A DNA stretch of 60,033 nucleotides from Candidatus Brockarchaeota archaeon (GTDB lineage Archaea; Thermoproteota; EX4484-205; JAAOZP01): the NCBI GenBank assembly GCA_017601245.1, contig JAFNJB010000049.1:1-60033 (forward strand), read 5' to 3'. Below, one piece after another: positions 35,163 to 37,916 of this stretch (positions are counted from its first letter, which is position 1; each line of letters opens with the position of its first letter). The translations under genes and the position numbers were made by a program. Under the pieces are notes generated by a model. The model did no database searches. It had not been told where the DNA came from and worked only from the letters and a program-made list of their open reading frames with translations.

Positions 35163-37916
35163 CTAAGAGGCTGCTTTAACATGCTCGACTGGTTTTTCAG
35201 CCCTAAGGTGGGAAAGAAGCTCGTCTACGGAGCCTACTCCAATTAAGGATTTTACTGCAGCCTCAAGCAGGTTGGAAACAGGCTCGACTGTAATCCCCTT
35301 CGATTCTAAAACATCAATTATCTTAAGGCTTTTCATAGACTCGTAATTGAACTTCGGCACTAGTAGTTTTCTAGCGTATTTATCTGCCAATGCTGCATCT
35401 ATCTTGCCCATGCCCCTGTGGTCTAATCCTCCGACTGGCCATACCTCCCCCTTAGCGGTTATAGCCCCCGTCATTATGACTGTCGGGTCTACTTTAAGTC
35501 CTGTTAATGCAGATATCATAGCCACACCTATGGCAAGACCTGCTGAGGGGCCGGATACTGGTGGATAGGAGATGCCTGGGCGCAACTGGAGCTTCTCCAT
35601 ACCCTTAGCCGGCGTGACCAATTCTATGAACACGTCATAATTCCTAAACCTCCATTTTGAAACACTGTTAATGTATATGAATGCGTCTTCAGCACTTGCC
35701 TGAATGCTTTCACCATGTTCACTACCCACGACCCTTACTAGGCCCTTCCCATCTGGATTTATTATGACCTCGACAGCGCTCACTAGGCCGCTCTGCTCCC
35801 CGACTGCGCCAATGGCTACTAGGCCGTAGCTCTTTCCGATTTCAGGAGTCTCCTCCCTCACGCTTTTTTCAATCATGGTCCTAGCTTCGCTAACAGCCTC
35901 TTCTTCAGACAGAGATTCTAAAGCCTGTTGGAAATGTACAAGCCTCAAGGGGTAGTTTGAAGGAGATACTTGTCTAATTCTGCTTAAGAACTCTTTGGAC
36001 TTTTCATCAACCCCGAGTATCTTAGCAAGTCTCTCTATATCCCTAGAATAGATGCTCCTTATTTCTTCTACAGACCTTCCCTCTTCCATTGCTTTGATAA
36101 GCTGCCTGGCTGCATCTATCTCCTTGACCCTTAGCCTATTGGCTTCGTTTATCACGTCGGCAATCCTCCTAGGGCTTAGAGCTTTTTTCCTAAGGGTTTC
36201 TAGGACACTTTCTACTGTGGTTTCATCGCTTAAGACATCAAGATACTTCTTTAAATGTATGCTTATTATCTCCCTCTTTTCATCATCAGTCTTCGGATAG
36301 CTGAATTCAAAAGTTCTCGTAAACCTTTCCAGGAGAGCTCTATCAAGAACCTCGATTCTATTAGTACTTGCAATAACCACTACGCCAGACAAGGGGACGA
36401 ATCCATCCAGTTCCGTTAAGAGCTGGCTAGTAACCCTATCTATAACAGGATCGTGCGTACCCCGCATTGGTGCAACAGAGTCTATCTCGTCGAAGAATAT
36501 TATCGCAGGCGCATTCCTCCTAGCATCTTCGAAAATGTCCCTTATAGTCTTCTCAGGGTCTCCGTATACTCCCTGGATTATAGACGGCCCGTTAACAAGG
36601 TAGAACCAGACATTATTCTCACCGGCTATTGCCCTAGCAAGAAGCGTTTTTCCCGTGCCAGGTGGGCCGTAGAAGAGAAATCCCTTGGGGGGAACATACC
36701 TGGCCCTGCTGGCAAGCTCCGGGTTTAAAGAGAGGGAAATCTCCTTTATTATCTCCTCTTTGATTCCTCTTAACCCTCCAACGTCTTCATAACGCTCTTT
36801 TGGCCTAAGCTTCACTACAGACCTCTTCGCAGCCTCGGTTCTGACGGTTATTGAATAAGCCTTCACCTTGGAAGCTGCCTCTCTGAAATCGTTTAGGGTA
36901 ACCAGTTCACCTGGGCTTAATTTCTCGCCAACGCTTTCACCGTGTAAAAGCCTATCGATAATACTCTTCTGAAGAGGAGCCATCTTACTGTTAATAACCA
37001 TCTGGAAGGCGTTAACTATGTCAGCAGGGGTTATGGCTTGCGTCTCGAAAGTCCTCAGAGTATCCTCTATTACTGTCAGAATATCGTTGGGAGGGATTTT
37101 AATCCCATGAGCTTGACACTGTTTCTCAACTATCTTAAGCAGCATACTCCTAGACAGGTTCTCGTCTAAGTCTATTGTTCCAGCAACACCCCTCCTGCGT
37201 AGAGTATCTATGAGGGATTCGTACTCTGTTGTGGAAACCAGTACTACAGTCCTATAATCCTTTTTCTGTAGTTCGTCGAATTTCTCGAGAAGAACAGTCT
37301 GAACCCTCGTTTCCTCCATACCAACTTCAGTAGTAGAGCTAAACCTTTTTGCAAAAGCCTGGAACTCGTCTATCAAGACGATGCTCGGATTGTAGAAAGC
37401 GTTGTTGAAGAATTCGCTAAGCCTCTGCGCGCTCTGACCATACCACATTGAATAAACCTGTTCAGGCCTGAGTTTAAGCAGACTTATTAGAAGCCCGTAT
37501 TCAAGCCCCTTTTCAAAAGCCTCTCTCTGAACTATCTCTGCGAAGAATGTTTTCCCAGAGCCACTAGAACCCTTTATTATAAAGAGCTTTGGAGGAGGTG
37601 TTGTGAAGGTTTTCCTTATCTCAGGGTCTCTGAAGACGTGATAGTGAATACTGACCATGACTTTGAAAAACTCCTCGTCCCTACCGACTAGATCATCCCT
37701 AGTGGCTTTTGGGAAATGTGGACTCTTCCTGATTTTCCTAGCCTTCTTATTAACGATCTTCCTCCTTTTCTCTGGGGGTAAGCGTAGAAACTTCCACATG
37801 CGGTATTTCCATGAGAATAAGTGGAGTAGGGGGGAGAAAATAGTCCTAAGAAACGGTTTTCTATACCACCATTCCTCTTCGAACTCTCTATTTTCATCGG
37901 GACCGTCCCAAAACAT
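35163..37916 (-). CDS. Tandem AAA ATPase (D1-D2) fused to a C-terminal Lon/S16 protease domain
   Basis: D1: GSSGSGKT, SMWYG, LIDE, LIDTLRRRG. D2: GPPGTGKT, FFDEIDS, STNR.EVLDRALLERF. C-terminus: SGPSAG, MTGAI...GEVWPVGG, GKIDAA. Confidence 0.9.
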   Translation of the reverse strand: MFWDGPDENREFEEEWWYRKPFLRTIFSPLLHLFSWKYRMWKFLRLPPEKRRKIVNKKARKIRKSPHFPKATRDDLVGRDEEFFKVMVSIHYHVFRDPEIRKTFTTPPPKLFIIKGSSGSGKTFFAEIVQREAFEKGLEYGLLISLLKLRPEQVYSMWYGQSAQRLSEFFNNAFYNPSIVLIDEFQAFAKRFSSTTEVGMEETRVQTVLLEKFDELQKKDYRTVVLVSTTEYESLIDTLRRRGVAGTIDLDENLSRSMLLKIVEKQCQAHGIKIPPNDILTVIEDTLRTFETQAITPADIVNAFQMVINSKMAPLQKSIIDRLLHGESVGEKLSPGELVTLNDFREAASKVKAYSITVRTEAAKRSVVKLRPKERYEDVGGLRGIKEEIIKEISLSLNPELASRARYVPPKGFLFYGPPGTGKTLLARAIAGENNVWFYLVNGPSIIQGVYGDPEKTIRDIFEDARRNAPAIIFFDEIDSVAPMRGTHDPVIDRVTSQLLTELDGFVPLSGVVVIASTNRIEVLDRALLERFTRTFEFSYPKTDDEKREIISIHLKKYLDVLSDETTVESVLETLRKKALSPRRIADVINEANRLRVKEIDAARQLIKAMEEGRSVEEIRSIYSRDIERLAKILGVDEKSKEFLSRIRQVSPSNYPLRLVHFQQALESLSEEEAVSEARTMIEKSVREETPEIGKSYGLVAIGAVGEQSGLVSAVEVIINPDGKGLVRVVGSEHGESIQASAEDAFIYINSVSKWRFRNYDVFIELVTPAKGMEKLQLRPGISYPPVSGPSAGLAIGVAMISALTGLKVDPTVIMTGAITAKGEVWPVGGLDHRGMGKIDAALADKYARKLLVPKFNYESMKSLKIIDVLESKGITVEPVSNLLEAAVKSLIGVGSVDELLSHLRAEKPVEHVKAAS

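What the first reader, a model, noticed from the sequence alone, without database searches (positions are those of the whole stretch)
35163..37916. Candidate new ATP-dependent protease class: double classic-AAA motor fused to a Lon Ser-Lys protease
Seen: one 917-aa ORF with two complete AAA modules. D1 has GSSGSGKT / LIDE / pore loop MWYG / DTLRRRG; D2 has GPPGTGKT / FFDE / pore loop GVYG / TNR..LDRALLERF. A helical insert follows, then a Lon domain with SGPSAG and TG.I...G.V.PVGG. The Lys of KIDAA lies at Ser+47 instead of the usual +43 because of a 4-aa insertion (LDHRGMGK). There is no Cdc48 N-domain and no LonB TM insert; instead a Trp/basic amphipathic N-terminus. Known: Lon uses one HCLR-clade AAA+ domain, FtsH has one classic AAA plus an M41 metalloprotease, and Cdc48/VAT has D1-D2 but no protease and works with the 20S proteasome. 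Inference: a self-compartmentalised Cdc48-like unfoldase-protease, possibly membrane-associated. The D2 SRH lacks the RPGR of Cdc48 and looks Vps4/CdvC-like. I know of no description of this architecture.
Basis: partly seen in the sequence, partly recalled or inferred. Interest (0 to 1): 0.9.

Follow-up and report, generated by a model that had tools for sequence, protein, structure and literature searches.

The report
Double-motor Lon protease with membrane partner
A group of hot-spring and sediment archaea encode an apparently undescribed protein-shredding machine, in which a Cdc48-like double ATP motor is fused to a Lon protease next to a dedicated membrane-protein gene, and it may be how they destroy membrane proteins without the usual archaeal LonB.

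Summary
Confirmed and extended. The minus-strand 917-aa ORF has two classic-clade AAA modules and a Lon (S16) domain. It is not a mis-join. In 194 full-length relatives both Walker A lysines and Ser791 are invariant and Lys838 is kept in 193. Relatives include two cultured Tardisphaera strains.

New here: an unannotated membrane-protein gene sits beside it in 62 of 66 loci; the other four lack the upstream DNA. A second subfamily has its own adjacent membrane gene in 16 of 16 loci viewed. Neither partner was found in 43 genomes without the protease. Among 401 Thermoproteota genomes, 48 have this protein, 25 have LonB and none has both.

Best reading: a membrane-recruited, ATP-dependent unfoldase-protease that replaces LonB. 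A Vps4/CdvC origin of D2 is unsupported; a Cdc48 origin fits better but is unresolved. Ser–Lys geometry, binding and activity are untested. No description was found in 10 literature searches.

The parts
35163..37916 (-). AAA-AAA-Lon protein, 917 aa (P0001); the only Lon_C domain found in this 92%-complete genome
37707..37889 (-). N-terminal Trp/Arg-rich helical segment (aa 10-70; W16 in 169, W17 in 184, R24 in 182 of 194); not transmembrane; candidate membrane- or partner-binding element (inferred)
36852..37706 (-). D1 AAA module (aa 71-355): Walker A K122, Walker B D183/E184, pore loop W158-Y159-G160, arginines 240-242; divergent, best hits VAT/Cdc48
36117..36803 (-). D2 AAA module (aa 372-600): K423, D476/E477, N519 and single arginine finger R531 (each 194 of 194); most conserved part
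35865..36116 (-). Helical insert and linker between D2 and the protease (aa 601-684)
35247..35864 (-). Lon/S16 protease domain (aa 685-890) with LonA-type GPSAG centre; model pLDDT 86, Z 23.9 (rmsd 2.3, 185 aligned) to LonA and Z 23.0 to LonB
35544..35546 (-). Catalytic Ser791 (194 of 194)
35403..35426 (-). Family-specific active-site loop L831-G837 (including R834 at the +43 position) and candidate general base Lys838 (193 of 194)
37962..38738 (+). Partner membrane protein (258 aa from the first start codon; the true start may be about 15-20 codons later). Signal-like N-terminal hydrophobic segment, soluble middle domain, two C-terminal membrane helices around a conserved loop Y.NA.F..D.YF.SK.E..S..R. 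No Pfam family. Divergent here; co-directional and directly upstream in 47 of 62 loci

Best explanation
A self-compartmentalising ATP-dependent protease that works at the inner face of the cell membrane. Six subunits stack three rings (inferred from Cdc48 and Lon). D1 takes up substrate with its W-Y-G pore loop, D2 supplies most of the force, and the unfolded chain enters a Lon chamber where Ser791 and Lys838 cut it. The protein has no membrane anchor. Its conserved Trp/Arg N-terminal helices bind the membrane surface and/or the conserved cytoplasm-facing loop of the neighbouring membrane protein, which acts as anchor or adaptor. The pair extracts and degrades membrane or membrane-proximal proteins, doing LonB's job in lineages that lack LonB. 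Shown here: architecture, fold, residue conservation, gene linkage, co-occurrence and non-overlap with LonB. Inferred: hexamer, activity, binding, topology and substrates. Odds: ATP-dependent protease about 0.8; membrane recruitment through the partner about 0.6.
For: Both Walker A Lys, D2 Walker B, N519, R531 and S791 are present in 194 of 194, and K838 in 193 of 194. The protease is as conserved as the D1 core (0.81 versus 0.81 mean column identity). The domain model has the Lon fold with K838 at the start of its helix. No C-terminal HbYX in 194 of 194. The genome has a separate Cdc48, a CdvC-like ATPase and 20S subunits. The partner is adjacent in 62 of 62 loci with upstream DNA, and adjacency survives a change of orientation (47 co-directional, 15 divergent). 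A second subfamily has an overlapping upstream membrane gene in 14 of 14 plus 2 of 2 loci, cut down to its membrane helices in two. Neither partner was found in 43 genomes without the protease, while 6 of 6 controls hit. LonB 25 of 401, this protein 48 of 401, both 0.
Against: No activity data. The Ser-Lys distance could not be measured because no coordinates were returned, and the 4-residue insertion lies in the active-site loop (pLDDT 77). PMC9569914 states exactly 42 intervening residues in LonA and LonB; here there are 46. D2 pore loop 1 lacks the usual aromatic residue in the host subfamily, and its arginine-finger motif is short. Homology between the two partner families is not shown (HHalign 30.7%). 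The LonB exclusion is weak: about 3 overlaps are expected by chance, kin are not independent, only 2 candidates per genome were scored, and 328 of 401 genomes have neither. One genome has a second partner copy away from the protease. One member (P0137) has a degenerate protease site. Neighbours of the most distant members were not seen.
Confidence: 0.58

Rival explanations
1. Signalling by regulated proteolysis: the partner is a sensor whose outer domain reads an envelope cue, and it is itself the substrate or a switch for one target, rather than a general anchor.
For: One-to-one adjacency and co-occurrence; a soluble domain between a signal-like segment and the membrane helices.
Against: Two loci keep only the 124-134-aa membrane part of the partner. 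No other neighbouring gene family was seen in more than 16 of 66 loci, once opposite-strand shadow frames of the gene itself are set aside. It is the only Lon domain in several genomes.
Confidence: 0.15
2. A soluble quality-control protease (LonA-like role); the membrane gene is merely co-regulated.
For: No transmembrane segment; LonA-type Pro before Ser in 191 of 194; divergent orientation in the host genus.
Against: Adjacency holds across lineages at about 60% identity and through an inversion; a differently sequenced membrane gene occupies the same place in subfamily 2; the partner was not found without the protease.
Confidence: 0.12
3. A membrane-protein extractor or remodeller whose Lon domain is mainly a ring scaffold with little proteolysis, as recalled for RadA/Sms and BrxL.
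For: Insertion in the active-site loop, with Arg rather than Lys at +43 in 147 of 194; one degenerate member (P0137); the BrxL Lon domain matches at Z 20.3.
Against: Ser in 194 of 194, Lys in 193 of 194 and flanking glycines in 193-194 of 194 across 30-40% overall identity. No BrxL model among the PADLOC hits. The window neighbours look like housekeeping genes (my reading).
Confidence: 0.12
4. Assembly chimera or chance fusion.
For: The source genome is in 61 contigs.
Against: 194 full-length relatives; a complete isolate chromosome carries it (CP117708.1); a contig of another run spans it.
Confidence: 0.01

Closest known systems
Cdc48/VAT (type II classic AAA; works with the 20S proteasome)
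   Same: Tandem classic AAA modules; best PDB and NCBIfam hits for the whole protein, D1 and D2; D1 nests in Cdc48 D1 in the mixture-model tree.
   Different: 242 bits versus cut-off 803; no CDC48_N/CDC48_2 domain; no HbYX; fused protease; the genome has a separate true Cdc48.
Archaeal LonB (TIGR00764)
   Same: ATPase and S16 Ser-Lys protease in one chain; the protease domain's top PDB sequence hits are A. fulgidus LonB; not found in the same genomes.
   Different: Two classic AAA modules instead of one Lon-type module; no membrane insert; Pro, not Asp, before Ser (although the Bathyarchaeia-type LonBs seen here also have Pro); 58 bits versus cut-off 517.
LonA / LonBA / LonC
   Same: Lon fold (Z 20-24); GPSAG centre as in LonA.
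   Different: Different ATPase clade and number; no LON N-domain hit; 46 rather than 42 residues between Ser and Lys.
FtsH and multi-AAA FtsH-like proteins
   Same: Classic AAA fused to a protease. FtsH degrades membrane proteins, with membrane partners HflKC (recalled). Triple-AAA+M41 proteins turned up.
   Different: Ser-Lys rather than M41 zinc protease; no membrane anchor of its own; D2 does not group with FtsH.
ClpAP/ClpCP (recalled)
   Same: Double-ring motor feeding a serine-protease chamber.
   Different: Separate polypeptides, a different protease fold, and a second ring of HCLR clade.
BrxL and RadA/Sms (recalled; BrxL structure 8emh)
   Same: An ATPase fused to a Lon-like domain.
   Different: Unrelated, DNA-acting ATPases; no BrxL hit in PADLOC.

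Membership tests
Peptidase S16 (Lon protease domain) | Lon protease fold | tested here: met
   Pfam above cut-off; Z 23.9, rmsd 2.3, 185 aligned
Peptidase S16 (Lon protease domain) | Catalytic Ser and Lys present in sequence | tested here: met
   S791 194 of 194; K838 193 of 194; aligns with the LonB Lys across a 4-aa gap
Peptidase S16 (Lon protease domain) | Ser and Lys in hydrogen-bond geometry; proteolysis | not testable with these tools
   No coordinates returned; no assay
LonA/LonB | Ser and Lys separated by exactly 42 residues (PMC9569914) | tested here: not met
   46 in 175 of 193, none at 42; two LonB controls also break the rule
LonA/LonB | One HCLR-clade AAA+ module (PMC9569914, PMC7226402) | tested here: not met
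   Two modules, both scoring best to CDC48
LonB | Membrane-anchor insert between Walker A and B | tested here: not met
   Absent in P0001, present in the LonB control
Cdc48/VAT | Tandem classic AAA D1-D2 | tested here: met
Cdc48/VAT | N-domain (CDC48_N, CDC48_2) | tested here: not met
   No hit at E 0.001 or better; N-terminus modelled as helices
Cdc48/VAT | C-terminal HbYX motif (PMC5070193) | tested here: not met
   0 of 194
Cdc48/VAT | D1 and D2 inside the Cdc48 clades | tested here: inconclusive
   D1 inside Cdc48 D1 (SH-aLRT 99, branch 2.27) but sister to D2 in FastTree; D2 unresolved, AU p 0.33 for D2 with Cdc48 D2
Vps4/CdvC | AAA domain in the Vps4 clade | tested here: inconclusive
   Not recovered and not rejected (AU p 0.30); low CdvC score
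FtsH | M41 protease and membrane anchor | tested here: not met
   No M41 hit; no membrane helix
AAA+ proteases in general | Hexameric ring with ATP-coupled processive degradation | not testable with these tools
   917 aa x 6 exceeds the complex-prediction limit; needs cryo-EM and assay

The most novel reading that the evidence does not exclude
A new class of AAA+ protease: a Cdc48-derived double ring covalently capped by a Lon chamber and docked on its own membrane adaptor. It would be a two-gene, ubiquitin-free analogue of ERAD that pulls proteins out of the archaeal membrane and destroys them, and that has displaced LonB in several Thermoproteota lineages.
Probability: 0.45. Interest if true: 0.9.

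Novelty: new variant of a known kind. Interest (0 to 1): 0.8.

Why it matters
The known ATP-dependent proteases pair motors and peptidases in a few fixed ways. In PMC7226402 only FtsH and Lon are fused, each with one ring. A covalent classic double-ring motor on a Lon chamber is a new pairing and a natural test of whether motors and peptidases are interchangeable modules. It offers a candidate for membrane-protein turnover in some LonB-less archaea, with a named adaptor to test. It can be studied now: two cultured Tardisphaera strains carry both genes, and there it is the only Lon domain found. The altered active-site loop (Arg/Lys at +43, Lys at +47) may be a new Lon active-site variant.

Tried and rejected
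Complex prediction of residues 1-360 with partner residues 46-258 gave no verdict (0.30 and 0.27, mark 0.32); it is not used as evidence either way. HHalign did not show the two partner families to be homologous, and the family-1 profile missed family 2. Pfam, PADLOC and ESM Atlas gave no family for the partner. The Lon-domain tree did not resolve the origin of the protease domain. The metagenome scan used a generic Walker A pattern and returned no family member among 80 loci; I used them as outgroups. A class-level search with P0309 found only 2 of 351 genomes, both subfamily 2. A metatranscriptome run has 15 contigs over 27 of 30 bins at 90-99% identity, but contigs cannot show transcription, strand or level; its two 'goes back' joints are single contigs and were disregarded. 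The sigma-70 scan is irrelevant for an archaeon. The Ser-Lys offsets from pattern matching (family rows) and one search were faulty and are superseded by the alignment count. The full-length model has unreliable domain packing (pTM 0.44). Rows left out of the 194: P0108-P0120, intein-bearing P0133, fragments P0121, P0144, P0146, P0157, P0159 and P0175, anything under 840 aa, and cluster members P0270-P0302 and P0358-P0376. Left out of the trees: the D1/D2 of P0131 and P0138 and L248; searches used subsamples. Literature: 10 searches found no description of this architecture.
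Full report
Observation. The interval is one open frame on the minus strand, 917 aa. Pfam finds two AAA stretches and Lon_C at 685-886 above cut-off, and no Cdc48 N-domain. No NCBIfam family reaches its cut-off: CDC48 scores 242 of 803 bits and archaeal LonB 58 of 517. 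Against A. fulgidus LonB the extra four residues fall between the GG and the Lys.

It is a family, not an artefact. The first search listed the best 120 of 1884 hits; the first 107 are full length at 57-100% identity. A profile search of 50%-identity representatives added about 20 more distant full-length forms at 30-40% identity, and two further searches added 50 and 13 hits. Across 194 proteins of 840 aa or more (many are close kin; exclusions are listed under Tried and rejected), both Walker A lysines, D2 Walker B, N519, R531 and S791 are invariant. K838 is kept in 193, D1 Walker B Asp/Glu in 192/188, and the three D1 arginines in 188-189. One contig from another run spans the locus with one difference.

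Distribution. A GTDB scan gave 66 loci, with titles including Brockarchaeota (83-88% identity among the closest named records, so probably the host's group; inference), Bathyarchaeia and Marsarchaeota. Two of them, CP117708.1 and JAQQXN, are the pure cultures MP-3918 and AK-3817 of PMC12542729, the Tardisphaera paper (passages read). Distant members carry Nitrososphaerales labels and one Nealsonbacteria label, which may be a misbin. The gene was found in 15 of 16 other genomes of the host genus, 7 of 9 others of its order and 0 of 15 further phylum members at E 1e-100, and in 48 of 401 phylum genomes by profile (two candidates scored per genome). Runs holding the DNA are mostly hot-spring metagenomes, 12 of them possible sources.

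The motor. D1 and D2 each score best against CDC48/VAT; CdvC is well down for D2. D2 is its own clade (100/100) in an unresolved fork with Cdc48 D1, Cdc48 D2, PAN+FtsH and Vps4. Neither D2+Vps4 nor D2+Cdc48-D2 is rejected (AU p 0.30 and 0.33). A branch that splits from the rest at the base of that clade keeps the RxGRF finger motif, as do 52 of 194 members, so the short 'ALLERF' form is probably a later loss inside the family. D1 is very divergent: it nests in Cdc48 D1 under a mixture model (SH-aLRT 99, branch 2.27) but joins D2 in FastTree. A Cdc48 that lost its N-domain and gained a protease is the simplest history, but it is not proven. D1 has an aromatic pore loop (W, Y or F at 158 in 173 of 194). 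In the host subfamily D2 lacks the aromatic residue at 450, while subfamily 2 has KWVG. No member ends in HbYX, and the genome has its own Cdc48, a CdvC-like ATPase and three proteasome subunits.

The protease. The domain model is confident (pLDDT 86, pTM 0.86) and matches LonA and LonB equally (Z 23.9 and 23.0). S791 opens one helix, K838 opens the next conserved helix, and the insertion is modelled as a small turn (pLDDT 77). PMC9569914 (introduction and passages read) gives exactly 42 residues between Ser and Lys and Pro before Ser in LonA; here there are 46 in 175 of 193, and Pro in 191 of 194. The canonical +43 position is Arg in 147 and Lys in 41 of 194, whereas 838 is Lys in 193, which makes K838 the likelier base (inference). 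The distance could not be measured. Two of two LonB controls also have +47, by a different insertion, so spacing alone does not imply inactivity.

Apart from opposite-strand shadow frames of the gene itself, one neighbouring family stands out: a ~250-aa protein beside the gene in 62 of 66 loci; the next most frequent family is in 16. The four exceptions lack the upstream DNA. It is co-directional and directly upstream in 47, and head-to-head in 15, those closest to the host, as in the window at 37962-38738. It has a signal-like N-terminus, a soluble middle and two C-terminal membrane helices. Its conserved residues cluster in and around the basic loop between the helices (Y213 in 60 of 60, D221 in 53, Y223 in 57, S232 in 55, R235 in 56), which the positive-inside rule places in the cytoplasm (inference). 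I fetched 14 of the 19 lower-scoring full-length phylum hits, a second subfamily at 38-40% identity with all motifs kept. All 14 have an overlapping upstream membrane gene of similar layout, reduced to 124-134 aa of membrane helices in two, and two further loci agree. Homology between the two partner families is not shown. In a hand-picked set of 50 genomes, the two profiles together hit 6 of 6 that carry the full protease and 0 of 44 others, of which one holds a contig-end fragment of the protease and is uninformative. One genome has a second, unlinked copy.

Relation to LonB. This is the only Lon_C found in the host, in both Tardisphaera genomes and in two of three other genomes checked. The 730-780-aa Lon proteins of other phylum members are LonB-like with a membrane insert (6 read). 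One such LonB hits 25 of the same 401 genomes, none among the 48. About 3 overlaps would be expected if independent, kin are not independent, and 328 genomes have neither, so this is suggestive only.

Mechanism and odds. Most likely a three-tier hexamer recruited to the membrane by the partner, extracting and degrading membrane or membrane-proximal proteins (0.58). Rivals: the partner as sensor or substrate (0.15), a soluble protease (0.12), a Lon domain as scaffold (0.12), artefact (0.01). Architecture, conservation, linkage and distribution are shown; oligomer, activity, binding and substrates are inferred.

Known systems and novelty. It is not a member of Cdc48, LonA, LonB or FtsH by their defining features, but it should work like a Cdc48-20S pair or FtsH in one chain. 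Ten literature searches found no description (listings and abstract starts only, except the five papers cited). The Lon architecture table of PMC2605481 has no double-AAA form (passages). PMC7226402 names only FtsH and Lon as fused (passages). PMC5070193 reports generally one Cdc48 type in prokaryotes (passages). Databases hold the proteins under generic names, and ESM Atlas has two automatic archaeal clusters of 110 and 118 members. Against uniqueness: four triple-AAA+M41 proteins show that multi-ring motor-protease fusions exist, and a bacterial Atlas cluster of about 1140 aa with AAA and Lon_C (84% of 93 members) was not examinable. Statements on ClpAP, HflKC, RadA, BrxL and ERAD are recalled. 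The PAN, Vps4 and FtsH labels in the trees are my own, from length and motifs; only L176 and L192 were checked by NCBIfam. Verdict: real, a new family within the AAA+ proteases, with a probable membrane adaptor; interest 0.8.

Noticed in passing
window 38728-39501 (-): 257-aa membrane protein with a C-terminal zinc ribbon, overlapping the partner's 3' end; present in 15 of 66 loci, those closest to the host.
   Followed up: partly
P0151, P0153, P0210, P0252: FtsH-like proteins with three AAA modules and an M41 protease; the P0151 cluster is labelled Thermoleophilaceae.
   Followed up: partly
P0204 (KPV64142.1, Bathyarchaeota BA1): Full Cdc48 with about 230 extra C-terminal residues; the protein contains HELGH, a possible second Cdc48-protease fusion; no M41 hit at 1e-5.
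   Followed up: partly
P0131, P0288, P0351-P0353: Family members of 1120-1142 aa with an additional C-terminal BSP peptidase-like domain (PF04450); Nitrososphaerales label and Tara among the sources.
   Followed up: partly
P0110, P0133: 1261-aa members; P0110 has a LAGLIDADG intein in D2, and P0133 looks similar but was not scanned.
   Followed up: partly
P0137: Member with a degenerate protease site (no GPS motif, Arg for Lys), a possible protease-dead form.
   Followed up: no
ESM Atlas rank 3: Bacterial cluster of about 1140 aa with AAA and Lon_C at feature score 0.98; architecture unknown.
   Followed up: no
L118:1800-4001, L121:1951-4179: LonB-like proteins with a LonA-type GPSAG centre and Ser+47 spacing.
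   Followed up: partly
L125:1-2511: Stand-alone ~300-aa membrane-tethered S16 protein next to genes that look like NfeD and stomatin (my reading).
   Followed up: no
L080:3313-4981; L289:3915-4691: Tandem duplicate of the partner gene in one locus, and an unlinked second copy in genome G100.
   Followed up: partly
genome G000: No PAN among the four PF00004 matches at E 1e-25 or better (Cdc48 twice, this D2, and a CdvC-like protein); the genome is 92% complete.
   Followed up: no
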